A DNA stretch of 64,000 bases from Octopus sinensis (taxonomy: Eukaryota). The notes beneath the pieces were generated by a model. That model had not been told where the DNA came from, searched no databases, and saw nothing but the letters and a program-made list of their open reading frames with translations. The stretch is from positions 6,324,001 to 6,388,000 of the forward strand of contig NC_043016.1 in assembly GCF_006345805.1 (NCBI RefSeq), given 5' to 3'. How positions within the stretch are numbered: the stretch's first letter is position 1; the number at the start of each line of letters is the position of its first letter. Below are positions 6,046-62,973 of the stretch, piece by piece. Both the position numbers and the translations under genes were made by a program.

Positions 6046-8742
6046 TGTAGCAATATCGTTACACTCATTGCTATCTTCACTGTTTGAGAAGAGTATTAAG
6101 AATAATCTCGTTCGAGATTACAAACATCTTCGGCTAGTTTAACATTGTTGTAAACACTAATTCGATTGGCTGACACGTGGTCTCTACTACGTTCGCACCG
6201 TTGGTTGTCATGTGACGCGATTTGCCTCCGCTTATTTTCGCGCCATTGTTCCAAGCAGCCAATCACAGCTTTCCATTTCTGAAGTTAGTTTTGAGCCACA
6301 TAAACCTTATAAAAGAAGTGTTCTCAGACAAATATCCGTCTTAGGTTTTTAGTTCTTTTCAGAACTAACCACTGACCACAGAGCTCGTCTTTGGTTCAAG
6401 TCCTTCTCAGGGCGAACTTCTGACCATACAGAGCATACTCGACCATGTTCCAGTTTGAAAGGCAGGCGACCACCATTAATACAAGATGTTACAGATTCCT
6501 CTCATATTGTTAGTGTGAAAATATCACCACGAAAAGAACGGTTACAGGATATCTATAACTAGAGAAAAATAACCAAGCAGAATATATAATGAAGACACAG
6601 CAAAAAAGAAAGCGACAGACACAACTCATCGCCAAACATCGTCTCTATCTACTAAGGTTTAATTTGTACACAAGACAACTACAGATTCAACTATAGCGGT
6701 TAGGTGAAAATATCACCACGGGAAAAACGGCTACAGTTAACACATCTGGAAGTATATTCATATCAAGAGAAAGATAAACACAACAAGTGACTCAATTAAT
6801 CTCAACTACGAGACGCAACATCTTGATATGGAACTCTTACCCTCCGTGTACCTCATAAACGGTAAATCAATTATCTGTCTTGAGTTCTAGTTCTTCTAAG
6901 AACTACCTTAAGCCATCTGCTACTACCTGTTGCTAGGCTGATACCAACAACATGAACTGTGAACCAAATTCCATTGTTATTTCTCTGGTCAGTACCTTTT
7001 ATGCCTCACGAACACACAAAAACATGCTAACACTTACAAACTTCCAACCAACATGATTGTAAAATATATAAAATAAATAACGTATATGTAGCCAGTACCG
7101 CATCGACTGGCCTCCGTGCTGTGGGCACATGACAAACACCATCCGATCGTGGCCGTTCGCCAGCCTCATCTAGCACCTGTGTCGGTGGCACATAAAAACA
7201 CCATCCGAAGACCCGGCAAGACTAGTCAGGCCATAACCCATGGCCCCTACCTGGGACGTAGTCAGTCCACCTGTGCATACCTTCCTTCTTGTGACACTTG
7301 TGAAGACCTGTTGAGGCAAGTGAAAATCAAATCAAAACAAATCAAAATAGATGAACATCAATGGAATCTGTATCTTTGTGGTACCAGTGCCGGTGGCACA
7401 CACTTTGTGGTACCAGTGCCGGTGGCACACGAGAACCATCCGAACGTGGCCGTAGCCAGTTCCGCATCGACCGGCCTCCGTGCTGTGGGCACGTAACAAA
7501 CACCATCCGATCATGGCCGTTCGCCAGCCTCATCTGGCACCTGTGTCGGTGGCATAAAAACACCTTCCGAAGACCCGGCAAGACTAGTCAGTCCACCTGT
7601 GCATACCTTCCTTCTTGTGACACTTGTGAAGACCGGTTGAGGCAAGTGAAAATCAAATCAAATCAAAATAGACAAAATAGATGAACATCAATGGAATTTG
7701 TATCTTGTGGTACCAGTGCCTGTGGCACACAAGAAATCCATCAGTGCCGTAGTCAGTGTGGTGGGCACATGACAAACACCATCCGATCGTGGCCGTTCGC
7801 CAGCCTCATCTAGCACCTGTGTCGGTGGCACATAAAAACACCATCCGAAGACCCGGCAAGACTAGTCAGGCCATAACCCATGGCCCCTACCTGGGACGTA
7901 GTCAGTCCACCTGTGCATACCTTCCTTCTTGTGACACTTGTGAAGACCTGTTGAGGCAAGTGAAAATCAAAACAAATCAAAATAGATGAACATCAATGGA
8001 ATTTGTATCTTTGTGGTACCAGTGCCGGTGGCACGTGGCACATAAGAAAACCATCCGAACGTGGCCGTAGCCAGTACCGCATCGACTGGCCTCCGTGCTG
8101 TGGGCACGTAACAAGCACCATCCGATCGTGGCCGTTTGCCAGCCTCATCTGGCACCTGTGTCGGTGGCACATAAAAACACCATTCGAGCGTGGCCGTCTG
8201 CCAGCCTCGTCTGGCACCTGTGTCGGTGGCACATAAAAACACCATCCGAGCGTGGCCGTCTGCCAGCCTCGTCTGGCACCTGTGTCGGTGGCACATAAAA
8301 AACACCATCCGAGCATGGCCGTCTGCCAGCCTCGTCTGGCACCTGTGTCGGTGGCACATAAAAAACACCATCCGAGCGTGGCCGTTTGCCAGCCTCGTCT
8401 GGCACCTGTGTCGGTGGCACATAAAATCACCCACTACACTCTCGGAGTGGTTGGCGTTAGGAAGGGCATCCAGCTGTAGAAACACTGCCAGATCTGACTG
8501 GACTGGTGCAGCTTTCGGGCTCCCCAGACCCCAGTTGAACCGTCCAACCCATGCTAGCATGGAAAGCGGACGTTAAATGATGATGATGATGATGATGATG
8601 ATCTCAAAAAGAAATCATGTTGTCATCCCACGTGTGTATCGCCGCTGTATGTATTATATGGTCTGTAATAACTCATTAAGAATGGGACCGCGTGCGATTG
8701 TATTTCCTACACAATACGACAGCATGTGATCCTATTTTTATA
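6046..8742 (+). mobile_element. Probable solo LTR, interrupted by an RTE UTR concatemer at 7088-8601
   Basis: Starts TGTAGCAATA, ends TATTTTTATA, 4-bp TSD CCTC (6042-6045, 8743-8746). Removing it restores the host frame KGKGDVLMGGNY. Internal ATTGG/CCAAT boxes and TATAAAA near 6308. Confidence 0.7.
7088..8601 (+). mobile_element. PHD-RTE 3' UTR concatemer with terminal ~7-unit array and GAT tail
   Basis: ORF-end motif GAAGACCCGGCAAGACTAG at about 7207, 7570 and 7847; array 8030-8430; tail to 8601. Confidence 0.9.
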
Positions 8743-18280: not shown

Positions 18281-20815
18281 AATGAGCCACTCCACGTTGG
18301 TCACCAGAGCAATATTTGATCACTTTATAGAGTGTTTGAGTGTCGGTTTGGTGTCTAGAATGGGATAGCTTGCCTCATAGGCAAGTAGAAGTTCATTAAA
18401 CTTTGTTGGTTATCTACCTAGAAGGAAATCTCCGAAATAAAACCTGAGGCCTTGGAAGTTCCTGGTTTTGTCAATTTTCATGTCACACCAGAGAAAATTT
18501 TCTTGGGCCAATAGGTGGGGGTAGTGCAGTGCAAGCTACACCCACTGAAAATTATTCATCTGCACAGGTACTTCCTGTACTCCAAATCTTAGTGAAATCA
18601 TTGAATTGGTTGGTTGGCAGAAACTTAAAAATGCACTTGTAACTTATTCTAAAATGTCTCAAACAGATTCAGTAAATGGCAAAAAAGGCTTGGGAATGTC
18701 AGGGGAACAGGTCTGGCTCGGCAGGTGTCCTAGTATATCACAGGCTGGGCCCAGTCGTCATCCTGCCACTGTGGTCAATCTTCAAGAAAAAGTAAAAATA
18801 AACATCCCTTCAATTTTGGCTGTTGGAATGTGTGCACACTTATTCATGATAATTTCGTCGAGAGGATAGAAAGGCGTACTGAATTTATTGCATGTGAGCT
18901 TAAGAAATATTCCCTTGATATAGTTGCACTCTCTGAAACTTGTCTCTCTGGTGAGGGTCAAGTAAATGAACCTACTTATGGATGTCCTATCTTTTGAAAA
19001 GGCCTACCTAAGGGTCAGCGTAGAGAATCTGGTATTGAGTTTGCTTTCAAGAATTCATTAGTATCCTCCATTGCAGAGCTTCCAAGTAGTGCATCTGAAT
19101 GGATCATGTCATGCCATATTAAACTGACAGTATTTATGCACCAACAATGTCCCATTCTGGTGAAACTGTAGGACAGTTTCATGATGATCTAGCACAATTA
19201 TTGAGGAAAGTACCAATTTCTGACAAGCTGGTTATATTGGGAGATTTCAATGCAACAGTTGGAAAAGACTATGTTTCATGGCCTGTTTTAGGTCAACATG
19301 GAATTGGAAAATGTAATAAAAATGGAGTAGCTCTTTTGACGTTTTGTACTGAGAATAATATGGTTGTTATCAATACTCTGTTTAAGCAGGAAAATAAATA
19401 TAAAACCACCTGGATGCACTCAAGATCTAAGCACTGGCATCTCATAGAATATATTTTGATCAGAAAACATATGAAAGACGTTTCTGGCAGCAGAGTGGAG
19501 AGCTGGACTGACCATCATCTAGTGTGTGGAAAAATAAATTTTTTGATAATGCCTAAAAATCAACAGTCTGGTTCTAAGGTACCCAAAAAGTTAAATGTTG
19601 CAACCTTTAAATTATCAAGCAACTTACAAAGATTCCGCGATGCTATAGAAAGTATCACTCTTGACCCAAACAATCGATGGGAAGATTTCAAAAGAAAAGT
19701 ATTTCAGGTTGCAAGTTCATCAGTGGTATTTAAATCACATAAGTCCAGTGACTGGTTTTCAGATAGATCAGCAGAAATTCATGATCTACTTTTAGAAAAA
19801 CAAAACTTAGGCAATACACTTCTTTCTCAGTCCTTGAACCCCAACTCAAATGAAACTTACATAAAGCTGCAAAGGAAAGTGCAGACTGCTCTAAGGAAAA
19901 TTAAACAGGAATGGTGGAATGATAGAGCAAAAGGGGCACAAGAAGCAATTGATAGAAATAATGCCAAGGCTTTGTACTTTTATGTTAAGGAGGTATATGG
20001 CTCAAAATCTTCTTCAGTAGCTCCAGTGGGAACAGCAAATGAACATTTGCTTCTGACTGACACCGCTTCTATTCATAAGCGCTGGGTAGAACATTTTTCT
20101 GCACTTTTGAATAAACCATCCTCCGCTGACATGAGGATGGTAGCAAAAAAACACCTTCCAGTTATAGAAGAGATGGTATTTGAACCAACTCTAAGTGACA
20201 TTTATATAGCTGTGAATAAACAATAAGCCTCCAGGGTCTGATGGAATCTGTGCAGAAGTCTTGAAATATGGCAGTGACAAAATGTTTGAACTCTTAAATT
20301 TATTAATTAGTCACTATTGGAGAACCGAGAAAGTACCTCATGACTGGATTGATGCCATTTTTAGTCTCCTTGTATAAATCAGGGCCAAAGGATCTGTGTG
20401 GTAATTTTCTTGGGATTTCGCTTTTGTCTCTGGTTGGAAAGGTACTTGCCCGCATTCTGTTAGAAGGTTTAAATACCTTCATAGTTCCACATATGGTATC
20501 TGAGTCTCAGTGTGGTTTTCGTTCCTCCAGGGGCAGAGCTGATTGTATCTTTACTATCAGACAATTGCAAGAAAAGTGCATTGAACAGAAACTTGCTCTA
20601 TACCATTGTTTTATTGATTTGAGCAAAGTATTCGATACTGTTAATCGAAATGCTTTGTGGCTAATTCTAAGGAAAATAGGTTTCGCAGAAAAATTTGTAA
20701 ACATGATCAGGGCTTTGTATCAAGATATGAAAGCTAGAGTTAATTTTGGTGGTAGGCTCTCTGAATTTTTTTGCTGTGAAAAATGGAGTAAAGCAAGGAG
20801 ACCTTGATGTACCCA
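18281..20815 (+). mobile_element. RTE/BovB-like LINE relic: 5' UTR, APE endonuclease, N-terminal RT; 3' truncated
   Basis: ILGDFNA, TWMHSRSKHWHLI, WTDHHLV, GISLLSLVGKVLAR, SESQCGFR, FIDLSKVFDTV, GVKQG; stops and frameshifts. Confidence 0.95.
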
Positions 20816-27617: not shown

Positions 27618-29587
27618 ATCATCATCATCATCGTTTAACATCCGTTCTCCATGCAAGCATGGGTTGGACGGTTCAGCCGGGGTCTGGGAAGCCAGAAGGC
27701 TGGACCAGGCTCCGGTCTGATCTGGCAGTGTTTCTACAGCTGGATGCCCTTCCTAACGCCAACCACTCCCTGAGTGTAGTGGATGCTTTTTACGTGCCAC
27801 CTGCACAGGTGCCAGGCGAGGCTGGCAACGGCCACGATCGGATTGGTGCATTTTACGTGCCACCAGCACGGAAGCCAGTCTGAGTGGCGCTGGCATCGGC
27901 CATGTTCAGATGGTGCTTTTTACGTGCCACAGCTCAGGGATCACAACTGCAGTTTCCATTGATTTTGATGTCGGTGTACTTGACTCAATGGATCTCCTCA
28001 AGCACAGGGTCGAAATGGTGTTTCTTCACTTGCCACCTGCACAGGAGTCAGTCCAGCGGTCCTGGCAACTGCTGAATGCCAGTCATAGGATTGGTTCAAT
28101 TTCGATTCCGATTTCACTTGCCCCAACAGGTCTTTGCAAGCAGAGTTTAGTGTCCAATGAAGGGAGGTTGGCATGGGTGCCTGTCGTCGGATGAGGTTCA
28201 ATTTCGACTTTGCTTGCCTCAACAGGTCTTTGTGTGTCCAAGGGAGGAAAGACATGCATAAGTGGGCTGGACTCACTTGTCCTGCCGGGTCTTCTCACGC
28301 ACAGCATATTTCCAAAGGACTCGGTCGCTAGTCATTGCCTCGGGGAGGCCTAAATTTCGAAGGTCATGCTTCACCACCTCGTCCCAGGTTTTCCTGGGTC
28401 TACCTCTTCCACGGGTTCCCTCAACTGCTAGGGTATGGTACTTTTTCACACAACTATCTTCATCCATTCTCGCCACATGACCATATCAGTGCAATCGTCT
28501 CTCTTGCACACCACAGCTGATGCTTCTTAGGTCCAACATTTCTCTCAAGGTACTAACACTCTGTCGAGTATGCACAGTGACATTACACATTCATCGGAGC
28601 ATACTGGCTTCATTCCTCGCGAGCTTATGTGTGTCCTCAGCAGTCACAGCCCATGTTTCACTGCCATGTAGCATGGCTGTTCGTACACATGCATCATACA
28701 GTCTGCCTTTTACTCTGAGCGAGAGGCCTTTAGTCACCAGCAGAGGTAAGAGCCCCCTGAACTTTGCCCAGGCTATTCTTACTCTAGCAGTTACACTTTC
28801 AGCACACCTGCCCCTGCTACTGACTTGGTCACCTAGATAACGGAAGCTATCAACTACTTTTAGTTTTTCCCCCTGGAAAGTGACGGAAGTTGTTCTCTGC
28901 ACATTTTCAGTGTTTATTGCTCCTGAGCATCTGCCACATACAAAAACTATCTTCCTATTTAGCCTTCCTTTGATATTGCTGCACCTCTTATGTGTCCACA
29001 GCTTACACTGGGTACATCTTATAGAGTTTCTACCTACGCCTTTTCTACAGATCAAGTAGGGCCATATACCTGAAGGCATTTGTGGTTTGTCTACCTTCCA
29101 GCTTATTAGGACTTTGGTTTTAGCTAGGTTGACTCTAAGGCCCCTCGATTCTAATCCTTGCTTCCACACCTGAAACTTCTCCTCCAGTTCTGATAGTGAC
29201 TCAGCAATTAGAGCAAGGTCATCAGCATAGAGGAGCTCCCAGGGGCAACCTGTCTTGAATTCCTCCATAATTGCCTGGAGGACTATGATAAATAGGAGGG
29301 GGCTGAGGACTGAACCCTGGTGGACCCCAACCTCTACCTTGAATTCTTCAGTGTACACGTTGCCAACCCTAACCTTACTTACAGCATCCCTGTACATGGC
29401 TTGCACAGCTCTCACCAGCCATTCATCTATCCCTAGTTTCCTCATTGACCACCAGATAAGGCATCGGGGGACCCTGTCAAAGGCTTTCTCCATGTCAACA
29501 AAAACTAGGTACAGGGGCTTATCTTTGGCTAGGTATTTCTCCTGCAGCTGTCTCACCAGAAATATGGCATCAGTGGTGCTTTTCCAT
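27618..29587 (-). mobile_element. PHD-RTE LINE, 5'-truncated: RT core, PHD, thumb, UTR, tail
   Basis: FVDMEKAFDRV, GVHQGSVLSPLLF, LYADD, VNLAKTK, Cys-rich insert, FRYLG, HGSETW, EKTRQDK*. Confidence 0.97.
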
Positions 29588-29604
29588 GGTACGTATGTGT
29601 GTGG

Positions 29605-29671
<67 letters not shown>

Positions 29672-29959
29672 ATATATGTATATATGTGAGGTGTGTATAC
29701 ATACATACATATATATAAACTTACTTGGAAATGGATGCGTTGCATTCAATCAAGTAATATATAATATCACTGTTTAAGTTGCCTAATAGTGGTTTTATCT
29801 CTAATTTAATTTTTATATATATATTTTATATATATATATATTTTATATATATAATTTTTATATGACGTTAAACGATGATGATGATGATGATGATGATGAT
29901 GACCTTCGAACTCTAGGTCTCACCAAGGAAATCATATATCAGAAAGCAGGGGTTAAGTG

Positions 29960-30804
29960 ACCCATCCGTTTGTGTCCGCTGTCAGACTCGTCTGGCACCT
30001 GTGCCGGTGATACGTAAAAGCACCATTCGCTCGTGGCCGTTTGCCAGCTCTGCCTGGCCCCGTGTCGGTGGCACGTAAAAGCACCATCCATTCGTGTTCG
30101 TTGCCAGCCTCGCCTGGCCCCGTGTCGGTGACACGTAAAAGCACCGTCCGTTCGCGGCCGTTTGCCAGCTCTGTCTGGCCCCGTGTCGGTGGCACGTAAA
30201 AGCACCATCCGTTCGTGGCCATTTGCCAGCTCTGTCTGGCCCCGTGTCGGTGGCACGTAAAAGCACCATCCGTTCGTGTCCGTTGCCAGCCTCGGCTGGC
30301 CCCCGTGCCAGTGACACGTAAAAGCACCGTCCGCTTGTGGCCGTTTGCCAGCTCTGTCTGGCAACCGTGTCGGTGGCACGTAAAAGCACCATCCGTTCGC
30401 ATCCGTTGCCAGCCTTGGCTGGCCCCCGTGCCGGTGACACGTAAAAGCACCGTCCGTTCGTGGCCGTTTGCCAGCTCTGTCTGGCCCTGTCTCGGTGGCA
30501 CGTAAAAGCACCATCCGTTCGTGTCCGTTGCCAGCATCGCTTGGCCCCGTGCCGGTGACACGTAAAAGCACCATCCGTTCGTGGCCGTTCGCCAGCTCTG
30601 TCTGGCACCTGTGCAGGTGGCACGTAAAAAACACCCACTACACTCGCGGAGTGGTTGGCGTTAGGAAGGGCATCCAGCCGTAGAAACACTGCCAGATCTG
30701 ACTGGGCCTGACGAAGCCTTCCAGCTTCACAGACCCCAGTTGACCCGTCCAACCCATGCTAGCATGGAAAGCGGACGCTAAACGATGATGATGATGATGA
30801 TGAT
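29960..30804 (+). mobile_element. PHD-RTE 3' UTR-only copy with 11-unit array
   Basis: CGTAAAA recurs at about 61-bp spacing from 30013 to 30623, then terminal domain and GAT tail. Confidence 0.93.
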
Positions 30805-33960: not shown

Positions 33961-34143
33961 ATTTTCTTATTTGTATTTACGGTAAAATATTTTTTACCTT
34001 CACCCATTCAATACAATAAATGAACTAATTGCATTGCAATTAAAAGCATTTATGTATTTAATATTTGGGTACTTTACCAGCAGTATATTGGATAACTGAT
34101 ATCCCATAGGGGGTTACACTCATAACCACTATCTCACTTTGTA

Positions 34144-34192
<49 letters not shown>

Positions 34193-34204
34193 TGTATGTA
34201 TGTA

Positions 34205-34270
<66 letters not shown>

Positions 34271-34274
34271 ATAT

Positions 34275-35745
34275 TTCAAGACAGGATGCCCCTGGGAGCT
34301 CCTCTATGCTGATGACCTTGCTCTAATTGCTGAGTCACTATCAGAACTGGAGGAGAAGTTTCAGGTGTGGAAGCTAGGATTAGAATCAAAGGGCCTTAGA
34401 GTCAACCTAGCTAAAACCAAAGTCCTAATAAGCTGGAAGGTAGACAAATCACAAACGCCTTCAGGTAGATGGCGCTGCTCAATCTGTAGAAAAGATGTAG
34501 GTAGAAACTCTATAAGATGCACCAAGTGTAAGCTATGGACACATAAGAGGTGCAGCAATGTCAAAGGAAGGCTAAATAGGAAAATAGTTTTTGTATGTGG
34601 CAGATGCTCTGGTGCAATAAACACTAAAAATGTGCAGAGACCATCTTCCGCCACATTCCAGGGAGAAAAACTAGAAATAGTTGATAGTTTCCATTACCTA
34701 GGTGATCAAGTCAGTAGCAGGGGCAGGTGTGCTGAAAGTGTAACTGCTAGAGTAAGAATAGCCTGGGCAAAGTTCAGAGAGCTCTTACCTCTGCTGGTAA
34801 CAAAAGGCCTCTTGCTCAGAGTAAAAGGCAGACTATATGACGCATGTGTACGAACAGCCATGCTTCATGGCAGTGAAGCATGGGCTGTGACTGCTGAGGA
34901 TATGCGTAAGCTTGCAAGAAATGAAGCCAGTATGCTCCGATGGATGTGTAATGTCAGTGTTCATACCTGACAGAGTGTAAATACCTTGAGAGAAAGGTTG
35001 GGCCTAAGAAGCATCAGATATGGTGTGCAAGAGAGTTGTCTACACTGGTATGGACATGTGGTAAGAATGGATGAAGATAGTTGTGTGAAAAAGTGCCACA
35101 CCCTAGCAGTTGAGGGAACATGTTGAAGAGGTAGACCTAGGAAAACCTGGGACGAGGTGGTGAAGCACGACCTTTGCTCTTTAGGTCTCACCGAGGAAAT
35201 GACCAGAGAACGAGACCTTTGGAAGTATGCTGTGCGTGAGAAGACCCGGCAGGACAAGTGAGGCCATAACCTGTGACCTCTACCTGGGACATAGTCAGTC
35301 CACCAGTGCATACCTTTCTTCTTGGGACACAAAGCTCTACTTGTGAAGACCTGTTGAGGCAAGTGAAAATCAAAATCGAAATCGATCAACATCAATGGAA
35401 TTTGTAGCCGTGATACCAGTGCCGGTGGCACGTAAGGGAACCATCCGAACGTGGCCGTAGCCAGTGCCGCATCGCCTGGCATCCGTGCTGGTGGTACGTA
35501 ACAAACACCATCCGATCGTGTCTGTTGCCAGCCTCGCCTGGCCTCCGTGCTGGTGGCACGTAAAAAGCACCATCCGGGCGTGGCTGTTCGCCAGTCTCGT
35601 CTGGTACCTGTGTCGGTGGCATCCAGCTGTAGAAACACTGCCAGATCTGACTGGGCCTGGTGCAGCCTTCGGGCTGCCCAGACCCGAGTTGAGCCGTCCA
35701 ACCCATGCTAGCATGGAAAGCGGACGTTAAATGATGATGATGATG
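34275..35745 (+). mobile_element. PHD-RTE LINE, 5'-truncated
   Basis: LYADD, KTK, intact C4HC3 insert, FHYLG, HGSEAW, premature stops, array, GAT tail. Confidence 0.97.
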
Positions 35746-42245: not shown

Positions 42246-43039
42246 GCCTCTCTGCAAAGTGCTTCTAAACAGCCCAAAAGAGGCTTTGTAACAGCTGATC
42301 CTGCACTGAACAAATGTTCCCATTCAGATATATTATTGTTGAGTGTGCTGAGCATCAAAGACCACTGAAGCTAAATTTTATAGACTTTAATTCTCCTCTC
42401 TATTATATATACATACAAATGAACATAGTAAATAACAGCTAACCTTTGCCTGCATTTTGGACCCTGTTGTGTCCACTACTCTGATTGGCTGGTATTGGCA
42501 CAATTTGTCTCTTGCTCTATCACACACCAATATGCAACCCAACCAATCACAGCCTTCAAATAAGGTCACATATGACAGTTTGTTTTCTACCCAGCTTTGA
42601 GCCTACAACTTCTTATAAAACTCCAGCTTCTCCTCATCTTGATGTCTTTCAGTTCCAGACCTTTTAAGGTCTAGCCACTGACCACACAAGACACAGCCAG
42701 TTCCAACGACAACATGACAGTAGCCACATGAAGATTCACTAACTTTGGTGACCTCCATCTCCATCGCCACCATTTGTCCTAACATCAAAATCTCTCTACG
42801 TACTTGCCCAGGTTACAACACTGCACTGTTCGTGAATTACTTCATCATGGATCAACAATGAATATACAACCTGTGCGAACTCCTGTACAAAGTGACCTAG
42901 GCTGCAGCATCACAGCCACAACTTCACGTATGACATGTACCGCAACCATCTCTACATCATTGCCGCAACTTCTTGATAAAGTATTTCAACTATCATGTAC
43001 AATTGACAATGAACTGGTACTTATAAGGTGCTAAATAAC

Positions 43040-44900
43040 ATCCCTCCTTCCCAAACCTCACCCCTCATTACCTTCCCAGTTTTCAGAGTTGGCACTGTCA
43101 ATGTTTGCACACTGAAAGGTAGGTCAAGTGAGATTGTAGAGGTGCTTGAAAGGAGATGGGTTGATGTATGCTGCATACAAGAGGTAAGATGGAGAGGAGC
43201 TTCAGCTAGGGTCCTCACAGGCAAGGCATATAGGTATAAGGTCTTCTGGCAAGGTAACATGGATGATGTAGGGGGTGTTGGCATACTCCATGTGGAGAAA
43301 TGGGTGGATAAGGTCATAGAGGTTGTCAGGGTATGTGATAGAGTGCTTAAGCTCAGGCTAGTCCTACAGAACGGCACAGCTACAATTATCTCTGTATATG
43401 CCCCACATGCGGGACTACCACATGATCAGAAGGACCACTTTTATGATACCCTTCTAGAGGCTACCTCAAAGACGAGTGGAAATGACCTCATCTTTGTGGC
43501 TGGAGACTTTAATGGGCATGTTGGGCAGGAATCTGGTATTTTCATTGGGGTACACAGTGGCCATACTATTGGCACTCGAAATGATGAAGGGACTAGGCTA
43601 CTGGAATTCTGTGATGCATGTAACCTATTAATCTGCAACACTAACTTCAGGAAGCCAGACAGCCACCTTATAACCTATCAATCAGGGGATTCTGCTAGCC
43701 AGATTGATTTCATCCTCACCAGACAGCGGGATGCAGGGTTGCTCTTAAATATAAAGACCCTCCCAGGTGAAGAATGTACTCCCCAGCATATGCTAGTCAT
43801 TAGTGACTTTAGGCTCGAGACCAGAAGGATACCAAGAAAATGACCAATCCAAAAAAGAAGGATTTGGAAGCTAAAGAAACCTTCACATGGTCAGAGATTT
43901 AGGGACATCGTCATCAAGAAATTTGATGAGAGGGAGGAGGAGCTACAGACATCGGACATAGAAGGTAGCTGGAAATTCCTACGGGACAGCTTGCTGAGTG
44001 CCACAGACCAAGTCTGTGGATGGTGCAAAGTCCCTTCCAGATCCAGAGTTATGTGGTGGTGGAATAGTACGATAGACAAAGCCATTAGAACAAAGAAACA
44101 GGCCTAGAAAGCCTGGAGGGATGGGGGTAACAGGGAACTGTACCAGATACCCAAAAGGGAGGCTGGGCGGCAGGTATACATAGCCAAGGGCGAAACGAAA
44201 AAGAAGTTTGCCAATGTCCAGAGATGTGAGGACCAAAGAACTGAAGTATTTCGGATTGCTAGACAGTGTGTGAGAGAAAATTGTGATGTCAGAGGAGAGA
44301 AATGCGTCCGCATGGATGATGGTGCACTTGCTTTCAGTGTTTCTGAAAAGAAAGAAGCTTGGAGAAGCCATTATGAAAGACTGCTGAATGTGGAGAATGA
44401 ATGGGAGGAGGAGAGCCTGCCAAATGTTGACCCAGTAGAGGGACCAGCTATCCCAATAGACAGCTCCCTAGTAGATAAAGCAATTAAGGGTATGAAGCCA
44501 GGAAAAGCTCTCGGCCCATCAGGAATCACTGCTGAGATGCTTAAAGCATCTGGTGGTGTAGGCTATGGCCTAGTCACCCACATTGTAAACCAGGTAGTAC
44601 ATAACGGAGTCATACCCAATGACTGGCATAGCAGCACCATAGTCAACTGTTACAAGGGTAAAGGTGATACTCTAGATAGAAATAACTACAGGGGTATTAA
44701 ACTGCTGGATCAGGTGATGAAGGTCACAGAGAGGGTCATAGCCCATCTCATTAAGGAGAGAGTCTACTTAGACGAGATGCAATTCGGTTTTGTTCTGGGT
44801 AGAAGTACCACTGATGCCATATTCCTGGTTTGACAACTGCAGGAGAATTACCTAGCTAAAGATAAACTCCTCTACTTAGCGTTTGTGGACTTTGAGAAAG
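43040..44900 (+). mobile_element. 5' half of a PHD-RTE-related LINE ORF: APE endonuclease, linker, RT start
   Basis: VGTVNV, CIQEVRW, SVYAP, AGDFNGHVG, IDFIL, QHMLV, KALGPSGI, NYRGIKLL, EMQFGF, FVDFEKA; collinear with 60137-61160. Confidence 0.95.
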
Positions 44901-54180: not shown

Positions 54181-54412
54181 TATTTCTTTACTACCCACAA
54201 GGGGCTAAACACAGAAGGGACAAACAAGGACAGACAAACGGATTAAGTCGATTATATTGACCCCAGTGCATAACTGGTACTTATTTAATCGACCCCAAAA
54301 GGATGAAAGTCAAAGTCGACCTCAGCGGAATTTGAACTCAGAACGTAATGGCAGACGAAATATGGCTATGCATTTTGCCCGGCATGCTAACGTTTCTGCC
54401 AGCTCACCGCCA
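54181..54412 (-). mobile_element. MetaSINE-like element
   Basis: Matches 24404-24631; TSD TAGTTCT. Confidence 0.9.
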
Positions 54413-54686: not shown

Positions 54687-54907
54687 CTAAGGTGGCGAGC
54701 TGGCAGAATCGTTAGCACACCAGGCGAAATGCTTAGCAATATTTCGTCTGTCTTTACGTTCTGAGTTCAAATTCCACTGAGGTCGACTTTGCCTTTCATC
54801 TTTTCAGGGTCGATAAATTAAGTACCAGTTGCATACTGAGGTCGATCTAATCGACTGCCCCTCCCTCCGCCAAAATTTCTGTCCTTGTTCCTAGAGTAGA
54901 AAAGAAA
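54687..54907 (+). mobile_element. MetaSINE-like element with variant 3' end
   Basis: Same head and core; 13-bp TSD AAGTACATGCAAG (54674-54686, 54908-54920). Confidence 0.9.
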
Positions 54908-55226
54908 AAGTACATGCAAGTAGTTCCAATGAAATAAGAACATACAAGTATTTAAAAATATCAGAACATTTCTAGAGATGTGAAGATTGACAGAGGAAGC
55001 AATCAACAAGGGAAGTAACTATGAATGTATTAAATCACTATGACATGCATTGATGATATTTGCCAACTGTATGTCAGGAATATAAGACACATGAGTTATG
55101 CTTAGTTCTGGAGATTATTTCAAACTCCAATGTTTTCACGGACCTCATGTATTGACAAGAAAACTGTAAAGCTGGTTTTAAAGCCTAGTATAAGATAGTG
55201 TACTCTGTTATCTGTTATGTTTGTAC

Positions 55227-55569
55227 TTGTACTTGTGGCGACATTCACCCTGGGCGGGTTGAGTCAGCTTCTTCTACTCATGGAAGAAGTTTCGTGGGAA
55301 TATGTGGATTTCACAAGCGGTCCCCAACAATCCCGCATGTAGAGACATCCTGTTTGCCGCAGATTGTCCGCAGACGCAGGGACAGAACGACCGAGGAGCT
55401 GCCAGTTGCCGAAACAGACACTCCGAGTTGTGGCCCTAATACCACTCTGTGTCAGACCAATCTGCCTTGGGTGGCCCTACATGGAACCGACGTTCCCAAT
55501 GGCATAGCTCTGACACTACCTGTTGCCAGCATCCCCACCACGGTGAGGAGGGCTTGGACTTTGGGGACT
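55227..55569 (-). mobile_element. Complete short non-autonomous RTE derivative (5' UTR joined to 3' end)
   Basis: 16-bp TSD TCTGTTATGTYTGTAC (55211-55226, 55570-55585); RTE-type 5' UTR words GAGCTATGCC and AGGGCCACCCAAG; (CAAGTA)n tail. Confidence 0.8.
55496..55568 (-). ncRNA. HDV-like ribozyme candidate
   Basis: P1 GUCCCCA/UGGGGAU with G1.U wobble; P3/L3 CCU-CCUCACCG-UGG; P4 CUGGCA/UGUCAG; J4/2 AGCUA; imperfect P2. Confidence 0.65.
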
Positions 55570-57021
55570 TCTGTTATGTCTGTACCTTTTGGAGACAGTA
55601 GGATGTGATTTGAGAAAAATTTCACTTGTCTTTTTCTAGCAGATAGAATAACCATGTGGGTGCAAGTACAGTTGTGTGGTTCCAAAGTTTTTTCTGGATT
55701 TACGTGTTTTATGTTCAATTCCAGTGTGTGCTAATCCTTTATGCTGATTAAAGCCTTGTGAGTGAAATTTGTTAGATGGAAACTGTGAAAAAGCATTTTC
55801 CTATTCTTGGGTGTTAGACTGAATCCTTTGTCTGGTATCATCATTTTGAAACTGCCCTACGATACAAAGTTCTGGTTGTGTGGCTCTGTTGTAAGAAGTT
55901 TGCTTCCCAACTTCATGGTGGGGAAGTACCATTCCAAATTCAGTACCATTGCATGGTATCTTGGGCATGTGTCTTCTACTATAGTTCCAGGCCACCTGAC
56001 CAAACTTTGTAAGTTGATATGGTAAATGGAAACTGAAAGAAGCCGATTGTGTGTGTGTATGTGTGTATAATCCAAATAATAAGACAAGGAAATCCCCTTA
56101 AAGATTTGTTTCAATTGTGTCTGTAACAACTCTGCTTGTAGTGACAGTTTATACAAAAATTCAAAATGAAATTTACATAATGTTTGCAGTTGTAGACAGA
56201 GTGGCACTCCATTAGACTTGCATCAAAGGTGTGCCTTCACATTGTGTGTCTTCCAGACATTCTACTTTTTTGCTTGTAGCAGGAGGAAACAAAATGTAAA
56301 TAAAAGTGTGGTTGGGGGATGAGTAGGTAGTATAGAGATCACCTGGGGAGGATGAAGAAGAAGAAGAATAAGAAGAAAAATAGGATAATGAAAGGTGAGC
56401 TGAAGCATGAGGTAGTAATTAGAAAATTGAATGGACAGTGCAAATTAGAAGAAAGGAGAAAGCAAACAGTACATGAAGAATTGTTACAATGGGTGACAGC
56501 ATTAAAGCCCAAATTGAAAAGATATGATGCTAGATGCAAAAGTTTTGAACAGAATAGACTGTTCCAATCAAATAGAAGGCATCCTTTTGAAGAAATAGAG
56601 ATGACCAACATCAGGAACTAATTCCTGATGCAGAAGAAAGTAAATATTTGTGGGAGAACTGTGGAACCGGCCTGCAATACATGAAGAAAGTGCAGAGTGG
56701 TTGACACAGGTGAAAAGACAACTTAGAATTGTGCCAAGGCAAAAGAATCGATCTCTATACAGTGAGACTATAGTAAAAAATAGCAAATTGGAAAGGACCT
56801 GGCCCAGATGGAATAGGAGGCTACTGGCTGAAGAATTTTACACAGTTGCTTCAAAGGATCACTGCAGAACTAGATAAAAGCCTGCAGTATGGTCACACTC
56901 CTACTAAAACGACAAGTGGATGAATGCCGTTAAATCTGAAGGATCCCTTTGAAAGGTAACTTGGCATCAAATTTGTAACCTATAACCTCTTTACCACTGA
57001 TGTAGAAGCTTATGACTGGTG

Positions 57022-57315: not shown

Positions 57316-57727
57316 AACGACAACTTGCAGAAAATCTATATAATCATCTAGAAAATAACCTACTTCCAGAAGAGGAGAAAGGATGCAGGAAAGAAAGAAA
57401 AACAACAGATGACCACTTTTAAGTTGATAAAATGATATTTAGAAATTGTAGATGTAGATTGATGGGATTGACTGTAGCATGGCCAGATTACAAAAAAAAA
57501 AAAGCATATGTCATAAGTACTGCACAATTAGATAGTTAAAACAACGAGGATGTTTGGAGTAGCAGAAGATATGGAGAAAATGGTTAATGAAAATATGAAA
57601 CATTGGAATACTGAATCGATTGGAGGGAAACAAAAACTTGGAGAAGTGAACATCAGGCGTGGAATATTTGAAGGTGATTGTTTATCTCCATTACTATTTT
57701 GTATAGACCATGACATTGCTCACTATG

Positions 57728-58203
57728 TATAAGATCTGGTCATCAAATCTAAGTAGAGATTTCAAACTTCAAGTCTTCAAAGCCACAGTCGAACCAATTC
57801 TACTATATGGCTCAGAAACCTGGACGTTATCAAAGAAGCTTGAGAGGCGGTTGGATGGAACTTACACTCGCCTCCTTATGAGAGCTCAAAATCTCTTGTG
57901 GAAGCGCCATCCAACCAAAATGCAAATATATGGGAAACTACCACCTGTGTCATCTCTTGTGAAAGGTAGAAGAGTCCAGTTTGATGGACATTGTTGTAGA
58001 GCTGAAAACGAGGTAATTTCTACTCTTCTCCTCTGGAAGCCATCTACTCGCAATACCAGAGGGCGCACACTTTCCTACCCTGATGTAATCTCCAGGGATA
58101 CAGGCATCCAGCAACAGGACCTCCGTAATGCCATGATGGACCGTGAAGTCTGGCGTAGCATGGGTAATTCCATTGTCTCGACCACGGTGGAACAATGATG
58201 ATG
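57728..58203 (+). mobile_element. 5'-truncated RTE thumb fragment, another family
   Basis: KIWSS..VEPILLYGSETWTL..GHCCRA..MMDREVWR*, stop running straight into a GAT tail. Confidence 0.9.
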
Positions 58204-59455: not shown

Positions 59456-60136
59456 ATTTATGTTTAATTTTTTAATTCTGTATTTTATTGCTTAATTTTA
59501 ATAAGCAATTTATTTGCTTAATATACTTAAAAGTATTGAATATATTTCATAGGCATTGATCTAAACTTGTTCTTTTCCTTGTATATTGTTTGAGAACATT
59601 GTTTATTGAAATACACTATTCCAGTAGTGTTTGTCGGGCTTGGTTTTGGTGTGACGTATTTATGGTGCGATGTTGATTGAGAAATAAAGTATCCAGAAGT
59701 CCATGTTTGTTGTATTGTCTGAATGTCCTGTTAGGAATAATTTCTTTGTTATAAGTACTACTTCATAGCTATGAGTTGTCACTGGTTCTGAGTTCCCAGG
59801 CAGCATTTATATTTTTAATGCTGTTGACATCGTTGAATTGAATGGCACTGCTCAGGTATAGAAACCTGTTTGGCAGGTGAAAACGTGAATGCATATTTGT
59901 TATGCTTGATTGTAAATTTCTTATAACTCTGTCTTGTTATTTTGCATCGTCTTTCATTCATGTGGAGTGGAAAGTGTTTGTGGATTCATAGTTTATGGGT
60001 ACCACTTATTTTGGTATTGGTTGTTTTTTTTCTTCATAGGTAATCTTATTAGTCTTTGATAATGCTTAGATATTGGTGTCTAGTTTTGCTGGCAGTTCTG
60101 TGGCATATGTATGTATATATATATATATATATATAT

Positions 60137-62973
60137 AGATCCTGCAAATGGACAGAGATTTAGGGACATATTACTTGAAGCCTCTGACGAAGTAGAAGGG
60201 GATAGAGCATCACAGGGGGTAGAAGACAGCTGGACGTTTCTAAGGGACAACCTGCTGAGAGCCACTGATCAGATCTGTGGCTGGTGCAAAGTCCCCTCTC
60301 GACCTCGAATAACGTGGTGGTGGAACAATATTGTAGACAGGGCTATTAGAGAAAAGGCTTGGAAGGTCTGGAAAAATGGGGGTAGCAGGGAATTGTATCA
60401 GACTGCCAAAAGAGAAGCTAGGAGACAGGTTTATTTAGCCAGAGGGGAGCAGATAAGAAAAAATTTGCCAATGTTCTGCGCCGTGAGGACCAAAGACTGG
60501 AGGTGTTTCGCGTTGCAAGACAGTGTGTGAGAGAGAATCGTGATGTGGTAGGAGAGAAGTGTGTTCGCATGGAAGATGGTTCACTTGCGCTAAATGAGGA
60601 TGCAAAGAGAGAGGTTTGGAGATGCCACTATGAAAGGTTGCTGAATGAAGAAAATGAATGGGATAAAGAGAGTCTGCCGAATGTTGACCCAACAGAGGGA
60701 CCAGCTATCCGAGTTGATAGTTCCGTGGTAGCTAAGGCAATTAGAAGCATGAAGACAGGAAAAGCCCCAGGCCCATCAGGAATCACTGCAGAGATGCTCA
60801 AAATGTCTGGTAGTGTCGGCTATAGCCTAGTCACCCGTATAGTTAATCAGGTGATACACAAAGGAGTCATACCCAATGACTGGTGTAGCAGTATAATAGT
60901 CAACTGCTACAAAGGTAAAGGTGATGCCCTAGATACAATAACTACAGAGGTATCAAGCTGTTGGATCAGGTGATGAAGGTTACGGAGAGGGTCATAGCCC
61001 AACTAATTAGAGAGAGAGTTAGTTTAGATGAGATGCAGTTTGGGTTTGTGCCAGGGAAAAGTACTACTGATGCTATATTCCTGGTAAGGCATCTGCAGGA
61101 GAAATACCTAGCCAAAGATAAGCCCCTGTACCTGGCTTTTGTTGACATGGAGAAAGCCTTCGACAGGGTCCCCCGATCCCTTATCTGGTGGGCAATGTGG
61201 AAACTAGGGATAGATGAATGGTTAGTGAGAGCTGTGCGGGCCATGTATAGGGACGCTGCTAGTAGGGTGAGGGTTGGAAATGAGAGTACAGTGAAGAATT
61301 CCGGGTAGAGGTAGGGGTCCACCAAGGCTCAGTACTCAGCCCCCTCCTATTTACCATAGTCCTCCAGGCAATAACGGAGGAATTCAAGACAGGATGCCCT
61401 TGGGAGCTCCTCTATGCTGATGACCTTGCTCTAATTGCTGAGTCGCTATCAGAACTGGAGGAGAAGTTTCAGGTGTGGAAACAAGGATTAGAATCGAAGG
61501 GCCTCAGAGTCAATCTAGCTAAAACCAAAGTCGTAATCAGTAGGAAGGTAGACAAATCACAAACACCTTCAGGTAGATGGCCCTGCTCGATCTGTAGAAA
61601 AGGTGTAGGTAGAAACTCTATAAGATGCACCAAGTGTAAGCTATGGACACATAAGAGATGCAGCAATGTCAAAGGAAGGCTAACTAGGAAGATGGTTTTT
61701 GTATGTGGCAGATGCTCAGGAACAATAAACACTGAAAATGCTCTGAGACCAACTTCCGTCACTTTCCAGGGAGAAAAACTAGAAATAGTTGATAGTTTTC
61801 CGTTACCTAGGTGACCAAGTCAGCAGCGGGGGGGGGTGTGCTGAAAGTGTAACTGCTAGAGTAAGAATAGCTTGGGCAAAGTTCAGAGAGCTCTTACCTC
61901 TGCGGTGACAAAAGGCCTCTCGCACAGAGTGAAAGGCAGACTGTATGATGTTTTGTACGAACAGCCATGCTACATGGCAGTGAAACATGGGCCGTGACTG
62001 CTGAGGATATGCGTAAGCTCGCTAGAAATGAAGCCAGTATGCTCCGATGGAGGTGTAATGCCGGTACTCACACTCGGCAGAGTGTAAGTACCTTGAGAGA
62101 AAAGCTGGACCTAAGAAGCATCAGTTGTGGTGTGCAAGAGAGACGTTTGCGCTGGTATGGTCATGTGGCGAGAATGGATGAAGATAGTTGTGTGAAAAAG
62201 TGCCACACCCTAGCGGTTGAGGAAACTGTGGAAGAGGCAGACCCAGGAAAACCTGGGACGAGTGGTGAAGCACGACCTTCGAACTTTAGGTCTCACCAAG
62301 GAAATGACTAGAGACCGAGACCTCTGGAAGTGTGCTGTGCGCGAGAAGACCCGGCAGGACAAGTGAGTCCATAACCCGTGGCCTTCTACATGGGATGGAG
62401 CCAGCCTACGTATGCATACCTTCCCTTCTTGGGACACAAAACTCTACTTGTGAAGATGTGTTGAGGCAAGTGAGGATCAGAATCGAAATCGATCAATGGA
62501 AATTGCAGATGTGTTACCAGTGCCGGTGGCATGTCGAAACTCTACTTGTGAAGACCCGTTGAGGCAAGTGAGGATCAGAATCGAAATCGATCAATGGAAA
62601 TTGCAGATGTGTTACCAGTGCCGGTGGCATGTAAGAGAACTTTCCGATTCGCGACCGTTGCCAGCACCGCCCCGTTTCGTGTCCGTTGCCAGCCTCGCCT
62701 GGCCCTCATGCCGGTGGCACATAAAAAGCACCATCCGTTCGTGGCCGTTTGCCAGCTCTGTCTGGCACCAGTGCGGGTGGCACATAAAAAGCACCCACTA
62801 CACTCACGGAGTGCTTGGCGTTAGGAAGGGCATCCAGCCGTAGAAACACTGCCAGATTTGACTGGGCCTGATGAAGCCTTCTGGCTTCACAGACCCCAGT
62901 AGAACCGTCCAAACCATGCTAGCATGGAAAACGGACGCTAAACGATGATGATGATGATGATGATGATGATGAT
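60137..62973 (+). mobile_element. Longest PHD-RTE LINE copy: linker, RT, PHD, thumb, UTR array, tail; frameshifted
   Basis: KAPGPSGI, EMQFGF, FVDMEKAFD, LYADD, KTK, C4HC3 at 61584-61715, stop at 62364-62366, array, GAT tail. Confidence 0.97.

What the first reader, a model, noticed from the sequence alone, without database searches (positions are those of the whole stretch)
55227..55569. Complete ~340-bp ribozyme-headed non-autonomous retroelement
Seen: a TSD-bounded element with no tRNA head. The predicted HDV-like cleavage site (G1 at 55568) lies one base from the TSD. P1 (7 bp, G.U first pair), P4 and J4/2 AGCUA fit; P3 has one mismatch and P2 is imperfect. It has a weak zinc-finger remnant (CPCVCGQSAANRMSLH) and a (CAAGTA)n tail that overlaps the GTAC in the target. 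Known: HDV-like ribozymes process R2 and RTE 5' ends, and R2 has short internally deleted parasites. Inference: a promoter-less element that cuts itself out of host transcripts and borrows an RTE RT.
Basis: partly seen in the sequence, partly recalled or inferred. Interest (0 to 1): 0.7.

Follow-up and report, generated by a model that had tools for sequence, protein, structure and literature searches.

The report
Ribozyme-headed mini RTE, dead copy
This is one broken copy of a short, many-copy jumping element made of the two ends of a 3.4-kb retrotransposon; the family's first 157 bases are predicted to fold into a hepatitis-delta-type self-cutting RNA, but this copy has lost the predicted catalytic base, and the arrangement is a known kind.

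Summary
The element is real. It lies at 55227-55569 (minus strand) inside a 16-bp TSD with one mismatch. It joins the 5' ~320 bp and 3' ~55 bp of a 3.4-kb APE+RT LINE of RTE build in the same genome (97.8% and 98% identical). The chimeric junction occurs exactly 142 times, so the short unit was copied repeatedly.

It starts 2 nt further 5', has a ~100-nt branched P4, and its predicted catalytic C is at position 149. Across four subfamilies P1 changes and stays paired in three fully, and each 5' boundary sits at or next to P1's first base. This copy lacks positions 144-171, including C149 and P2', so it is likely inactive. The 'zinc finger' is 5'-UTR sequence.

Bipartite non-autonomous RTEs and RTE ribozymes are published, and the scan found this kind on other genomes. 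Cleavage is untested. Verdict: new member of a known kind.

The parts
55570..55585 (-). 5' copy of the 16-bp target-site duplication
   Evidence: sequence; TSD finder
55569..55569 (-). A in place of family C2; family G1 absent (5' end short by 1-2 nt)
   Evidence: alignment to family majority
55563..55568 (-). remnant of P1 5' strand (family 3-8)
55550..55553 (-). predicted P2 5' strand (family 18-21), C18 changed to G here
55537..55549 (-). predicted P3 (CC/GG, U.U at its base) and 7-nt L3 UCACCGU (family 22-34)
55529..55536 (-). P1 3' strand (family 35-42), C40 to T by CpG decay at 55531
55523..55528 (-). predicted P1.1 3' strand UG (pairs with L3 C26, A27) and J1.1/4 GCAA (family 43-48)
   Evidence: fold; pair counts
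55427..55428 (-). site of a 28-bp deletion (family 144-171) removing the P4 closing strand, G148-C149 (predicted catalytic C), J4/2 and P2'
   Evidence: loose ends at 55423-55427
55278..55427 (-). rest of the LINE 5' UTR (holds the supposed zinc-finger peptide; ends with the CUUCUUC arm)
   Evidence: 97.8% match of family 5' 321 bp to L121
55227..55277 (-). LINE 3' end: last ORF codons (GAAGAAG arm), stop, short 3' UTR, CAAGTA tail
   Evidence: 98% match to L121 3' end
55211..55226 (-). 3' copy of the TSD; its GTA continues the tail

Best explanation
The element is a decayed copy of a short non-autonomous retrotransposon made of the two ends of a 3.4-kb LINE, likely of the RTE clade; the family's 5' 157 nt are predicted to be an HDV-like ribozyme that likely sets the 5' end by self-cleavage, the LINE's reverse transcriptase likely copied the RNA through the shared 3' end, and this copy, lacking the predicted catalytic C, is likely dead. 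Shown: two-part identity to the LINE, repeated junction, TSDs, shared 5' end, covarying P1. Inferred: self-cleavage at family position 1, mobilisation in trans by TPRT, and origin of the deletion by the RT jumping across a short stem between the 5' UTR end (CUUCUUC) and the ORF end (GAAGAAG).
For: Parent LINE L121 with TSD, APE and RT; 94 APE+RT homologues at E<=1e-50, best 75% identical, most ~1000-1100 aa. Junction pattern 142 exact hits vs 0 for the reversed control. TSD score >=8 in 36 of 84 distinct loci vs 2 of 248 shuffled pairings. 15 of 27 copies found with a 3'-only query start within family positions 1-3. HDV descriptor fits the majorities of F1-F3 from their first or second base with catalytic C in GC-N-R-A; 0, 0, 0 and 1 of 2000 shuffles fit; F4 fits when P4 closure is relaxed to 2 bp. 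Own-family P1 pairing is 8/8, 7/7, 5/7 (6 bp in a shifted register) and 7/7; cross-family 3-6 of 7. On 17 copies: 88% of cells paired, 10 pairs with two-sided change, slid controls 38-46%. 0 of 80 metagenome loci with the core pattern complete the fold. 45 of 52 copies found with queries lying outside the deleted segment keep positions 148-157.
Against: No cleavage data. The descriptor was written after seeing the sequences, so its shuffle control is optimistic, and F4 failed the strict version. P2 is short (4-5 contiguous bp) with little covariation (79% paired, 1 two-sided pair), the P4 closing helix scores 67% on the MAFFT alignment, the first P3 pair is U.U in F1-F3, P1 is 8 bp or has a spare base in F1, and P1.1 uses A-U. 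The 17 copies were hand-picked and come from four related subfamilies, so shuffle counts are not probabilities. Only 21 of 42 F1, 10 of 30 F2, 2 of 30 F3 and 2 of 30 F4 individual copies pass. No Rfam HDV model hits. Cross-family P1 pairing is fairly high because the strands are C/G-rich. No intact ORF copy was seen and no clade tree was built.
Confidence: 0.78

Rival explanations
1. Same bipartite RTE derivative, but the structured head is an internal promoter, translation or RNP-binding element (or a ribozyme relic) and does not cleave; the sharp 5' end comes from transcription start.
For: P4-domain sequence is more conserved across subfamilies than cleavage alone needs; non-canonical P3 and P1.1 pairs; 12 of 27 copies are 5'-truncated or rearranged; L1Tc's head is both promoter and ribozyme (PMC3185411 passages).
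Against: L3, CC/GG, GC-N-R-A and a P1 that starts at the boundary all appear in HDV order in four subfamilies whose P1 sequences differ.
Confidence: 0.15
2. First reader's compact ribozyme (G1 at 55568, 5-bp P4, J4/2 AGCUA, P2' right after) is the functional fold and this copy is complete and active.
For: The pairings can be drawn on this single copy; AGCUA is conserved in all four subfamilies.
Against: P4 34% and P2 58% paired across 17 copies; P2 relies on private changes at 55553-55554 and CpG decay at 55498 and 55500; AGCUA lies inside an 8-bp helix domain that is 96% paired; the family starts 2 nt earlier.
Confidence: 0.04
3. Short copies are one-off deletions made at each LINE insertion and never transposed themselves.
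For: 19 breakpoint classes among 72 copies, clustered at one stem, so recurrence is real; intermediate-length copies exist (L041, L049, L124).
Against: One exact junction is found 142 times and makes up 32 of 72 mapped junctions; long copies are rare (1 full-length among 20 loci chosen by the ORF end). A very strong hot spot is not formally excluded.
Confidence: 0.08

Closest known systems
Bipartite ORF-absent non-autonomous RTE LINEs (RTE-N2_Lch, RTESINE1/2, WALLSI3, Bov-A; Kojima 2018, PMC5786205, parts 1-4 of 5 read)
   Same: Only the 5' and 3' ends of an RTE LINE, no small-RNA head, keeps the true 5' end; RTE-N2_Lch is 214 + 70 bp, this family ~320 + 55 bp. The paper already links retained 5' ends to ribozymes.
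   Different: Different host and LINE lineage; ribozyme register worked out here; many independent junctions and the same process in a sister subfamily.
R2 SIDEs (Eickbush and Eickbush 2012, PMC3414825, abstract read)
   Same: 5' HDV-like ribozyme joined to the LINE 3' end, moved in trans.
   Different: R2 is rDNA site-specific and SIDEs are rare; this family is dispersed, APE-type, with variable TSDs and hundreds of copies.
L1Tc/NARTc ribozyme (Sanchez-Luque 2011, PMC3185411, passages read)
   Same: Head shared by an autonomous APE LINE and its short derivative; cleavage at base +1, which is a C there as in subfamilies F2-F4; single-pair P1.1 as predicted for F4.
   Different: 77-nt core vs ~157 nt with a ~100-nt branched P4 here; Ingi-type vs RTE-type; activity shown there, not here.
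HDV-like ribozymes of RTE elements (Ruminski 2011; not held, seen only as cited in PMC5786205 and PMC6765202)
   Same: Predicted HDV-like fold at an RTE 5' end.
   Different: Could not compare registers; whether a long branched P4 is reported there is unknown to me.
Schistosoma SR3/Perere-3 (PMC1291365, PMC8501958, passages read)
   Same: RTE-clade single ORF, short 3' UTR, TAAG/GTAA tail, TSD next to the ribozyme cut site.
   Different: Uses a twister variant rather than an HDV-like fold.

Membership tests
Bipartite non-autonomous LINE | 5' and 3' parts match the two ends of an autonomous LINE | tested here: met
   97.8% over 322 bp and 98% over 55 bp to L121
Bipartite non-autonomous LINE | No ORF and no small-RNA head | tested here: met
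Bipartite non-autonomous LINE | Multiplied as a unit with TSDs | tested here: met
   142 exact junctions; TSD 36 of 84 vs 2 of 248
RTE clade (partner LINE) | ~3.2-3.9 kb, one long ORF with APE then RT | tested here: met
   3.43 kb; Pfam RVT_1 strong, endonuclease hits below cut-off (E 0.0016); ORF broken by stops and frameshifts in L121; criteria from PMC1291365
RTE clade (partner LINE) | Short 3' UTR ending in A-rich 4-5-mer repeats | tested here: met
   stop ~20 nt before CAAGTA/AGTA repeats
RTE clade (partner LINE) | RT phylogeny groups with named RTE elements | not tested
   no clade-labelled references at hand; closest named hits are cestode (44-50%) and schistosome (33%) proteins
HDV-like ribozyme (family head) | P1 of ~6-8 bp beginning at the element's first base | tested here: met
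   F1 8, F2 7, F3 6, F4 7 bp, with two-sided changes
HDV-like ribozyme (family head) | P3 and L3 with conserved U..G, directly before P1' | tested here: met
   CC/GG with 7-nt L3 in all four; first pair U.U in F1-F3, A-U in F4
HDV-like ribozyme (family head) | P1.1 of 1-2 bp | tested here: inconclusive
   A-U in 15 of 17 copies, no covariation; second C-G pair in F1-F3 only
HDV-like ribozyme (family head) | J4/2 with catalytic C and a constrained A after P4 | tested here: met
   GCAGA, GCCAA, GCUAA, GCUAA right after P4 closure
HDV-like ribozyme (family head) | P2 of at least 5 bp, mismatches common (R2 consensus, PMC3774820) | tested here: inconclusive
   4-5 contiguous bp plus a possible CCA/UGG extension; 79% paired
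HDV-like ribozyme (family head) | Mg2+-dependent cleavage lost with C-to-U | not testable with these tools
   bench test
HDV-like ribozyme (this copy) | Catalytic C, J4/2 and P2' present | tested here: not met
   family 144-171 deleted; descriptor finds no fit
tRNA-derived SINE | tRNA-like head | tested here: not met
   head is LINE 5' UTR

The most novel reading that the evidence does not exclude
This RTE lineage carries an undescribed large HDV-like ribozyme variant: an A-U P1.1, a U.U at the base of P3 and a ~100-nt branched P4 whose sequence is held more tightly than the catalytic stems, suggesting a second job (protein or ribosome binding). A short stem pairing the 5' UTR end with the ORF end then acts as a jump point that repeatedly spawns self-releasing mini-elements, so the junction map would directly show end-to-end pairing of RTE RNA during TPRT.
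Probability: 0.3. Interest if true: 0.55.

Novelty: new member of a known kind. Interest (0 to 1): 0.3.

Why it matters
If the family head cleaves, it adds a test case for the open point in Kojima 2018 of why only RTE, Ingi/Vingi and R2 make bipartite parasites and keep their exact 5' ends. Four subfamilies give natural covariation and a ready wild-type/C149U design, and the fold is missed by Rfam. This particular copy matters little: it is an old, broken insertion with no host gene seen in the window.

Tried and rejected
Rfam scans of the window region and of four family loci: no HDV-type hit. Single-strand folds of this copy's head: z-scores -0.16 to 0.91, no signal. Zinc-finger remnant: rejected. 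An alternative long-range pairing of bases 1-20 with family ~265-283 in the 320-nt MFE: not pursued, since by eye the 3' partner stays the same in F2 while P1 changes. Metagenome pattern scan: 118 stretches, 80 fetched, none completes the fold and none resembles the family beyond the pattern. Sequencing runs: no RNA holder listed, all contigs; no 5' start or expression can be read; no empty site seen. End-to-end stem: its duplex energy ranks only 152 of 3017 windows, with 17 other sites as good, so energy alone does not support it. One search hits were enriched for copies with deletions because the query had one, so deletion counts use L031-L090 only. Motif search in the supplements of PMC9115989: no hit, but 4 of 8 files were not searched. 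Sequence look-up in earlier findings: nothing. Ruminski 2011 could not be read, so the comparison with published RTE ribozymes is open.

Full report
OBSERVATION. On the minus strand, 55569-55227 is a 343-bp GC-richer stretch between two copies of a 16-bp target sequence (55570-55585 and 55211-55226, one mismatch). It ends in CAAGTA repeats that run into the GTA of the target. ARAGORN finds no tRNA and Rfam gives nothing of note. There is no second copy in the window. The genome is 2.72 Gb; from its repeats I take it for an octopus, which is my inference and comes from no call.

IT IS A FAMILY. A genome search gave 1534 first-look candidates; 40 were scored, giving 41 matches at 85-100%. Searches with the 5' and 3' parts alone gave 1181 and 1434 candidates. 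Flanks differ between loci. A TSD scoring >=8 was found in 36 of 84 distinct loci against 2 of 248 shuffled pairings. Of 27 copies found with the 3'-only query, 15 start within positions 1-3; 12 are truncated or rearranged. The window copy differs from the majority by 15 substitutions, 8 of them CpG decay, and by a 28-bp deletion of positions 144-171. Public contigs show the family letters at several of those places. A contig from a run labelled as another organism crosses the 5' junction without differences, which suggests the insertion predates that split; no empty site was seen.

THE PARTNER. Longer copies showed what lies behind the junction, and a search with that piece led to L121, a 3.43-kb element with its own TSD. 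It matches the family's first 321 bp at 97.8% and last 55 bp at 98%. It has one long, now broken, ORF with endonuclease and RT. 94 homologues were found at E<=1e-50 among 7986 scored, the closest named ones from cestodes and a schistosome. Length, single ORF, short 3' UTR and A-rich tail match the RTE criteria in PMC1291365 (passages). I built no tree, so the clade rests on architecture. Of 20 loci picked by the ORF end, one was full-length, one bipartite and 18 were 5'-truncated. The chimeric junction of the window copy, which the LINE lacks, occurs exactly 142 times, the reversed control 0 times. The 'zinc finger' peptide lies in the 5' UTR, upstream of the endonuclease; the ORF ends without a finger and Pfam finds nothing.

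THE HEAD. Folding the family majority showed a 1-8/35-42 helix and a large branched domain at 49-147. A protein search brought diverged relatives and three DNA searches gave 30 loci each of subfamilies F2-F4. In each, conservation starts at or next to the first base of P1, while the P1 sequence itself differs. Own-family pairing is 8/8, 7/7, 5/7 (6 bp in a shifted register) and 7/7; cross-family pairing is 3-6 of 7. The F3 majority used 14 of 30 loci; 16 lacking the standard head were dropped. All four have CC-[7-nt loop]-GG, then P1', then a U able to pair with the loop's A, and after P4 closes, GC-N-R-A followed by a G run that pairs with the C run before P3. That order follows the HDV core as I recall it and as described in PMC3774820 and PMC4908430 (passages). 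A descriptor fits F1-F3 strictly, with 0, 0, 0 and 1 of 2000 shuffles fitting. F4 fails the strict form and fits when P4 closure is relaxed to 2 bp. The descriptor was written after seeing the data. On 17 hand-picked copies my structure has 88% of cells paired, 10 pairs with two-sided change, and slid controls at 38-46%. Weak points: P2 is short, P1.1 shows no covariation, the first P3 pair is U.U in F1-F3, and MAFFT puts F4 out of register in places. 0 of 80 metagenome loci that share the core pattern complete the fold. Rfam misses it.

THIS COPY. The deletion removes the P4 closing strand, C149, J4/2 and P2'; the descriptor finds no fit. 45 of 52 copies found with queries lying outside the deleted segment keep 148-157. 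Similar deletions with varied ends occur in other copies and in F2 and F3, so this is a recurring lesion and not an obvious subfamily. Individually, 21 of 42 F1, 10 of 30 F2, 2 of 30 F3 and 2 of 30 F4 copies pass the relaxed descriptor, as expected for decaying copies but also a limit on the evidence.

MECHANISM. Shown: two-part origin, repeated junction, TSDs, shared 5' boundary, covarying P1. Inferred: a transcript entering the element is cut before base 1; the LINE protein binds the shared 3' end and primes at a nick, helped by tail-target microhomology; copies are inserted with TSDs. An internal promoter is not excluded, and nothing here shows host read-through: no RNA holder was listed and only contigs were available; the window's long frames that I could recognise are repeat-derived. 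A lead from earlier scan notes was tested. 71 of 72 mapped junctions keep the 5' arm CUUCUUC, 71 keep the 3' arm GAAGAAG, and 58 lie right at the top of that stem, in 19 breakpoint classes. Two of the three queries spanned the junction, which biases this. F2 has a matching extra U-A pair by eye, but the duplex ranks only 152 of 3017 windows. I rate an RT jump across this stem as plausible, not shown. 21 of 30 F2 loci also have the 3' end within ~520 bp, so short derivatives recur.

COMPARISON. Kojima 2018 (PMC5786205, parts 1-4 of 5) describes bipartite ORF-less RTE derivatives and links their intact 5' ends to ribozymes. R2 SIDEs (PMC3414825, abstract), L1Tc/NARTc (PMC3185411, passages) and the review PMC6765202 (passages) cover the ribozyme-headed strategy. 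Perere-3 uses a twister variant (PMC8501958, passages). RTE-2_OV differs in ORF and UTR length (PMC9115989, passages; 4 of 8 supplements unsearched). Ruminski 2011 was not available. Searches (listings) found no paper on this family; one search returned 0 papers with octopus, HDV, ribozyme and retrotransposon together. Repbase and Dfam could not be checked, so the family may already be named. The scan has eight notes on this kind in other genomes; they are not independent support.

VERDICT. A real element and a new member of a known kind; family ribozyme probable (about 0.8) in a corrected register; this copy likely dead. Interest 0.3.

Noticed in passing
L212, L213, L217, L218, L221-L223, L227, L228 upstream of the F3 head: Several F3 loci have lost P1/P2 5' and share up to ~215 bp of other sequence fused at P3; by eye it is the reverse of another RTE-type 5' UTR (compare L169), a head-to-head chimera found at several places, some of them tandem or duplicated.
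   Followed up: partly
family positions 55-122 (window 55516-55449): The P4 interior is nearly unchanged in sequence across four subfamilies while P1 is rewritten, which suggests a second function.
   Followed up: partly
family 135-176 in L001-L030, L144, L175, L229: Recurrent deletions with varied ends over the J4/2-P2' segment in three subfamilies; short CNGG repeats flank several of them.
   Followed up: partly
L017, L041/L042, L058, L086, L088, L039, L043, L172, L191: Tandem or partial duplications of the 5' head in front of a full copy, as from RT template jumps.
   Followed up: no
window 54181-54411, 54689-54863, 55750-55787, ~56020-56066: Other very high-copy short repeats flank the element, probably SINE fragments; not identified.
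   Followed up: no
window 19123-20807, 28591-29745, 34110-34970, 43013-44833, 57707-58198, 60084-61814: Fragments of other LINE-type endonuclease and RT frames (recognised by eye).
   Followed up: no
window 8035-8426, 29962-30629 and similar: Arrays of a 61-66-bp unit recur through the window.
   Followed up: no
P0010 and P0045: Two homologues (48% and 36%) are labelled as from a bacterial MAG on short contigs; probably host DNA in the bin.
   Followed up: no
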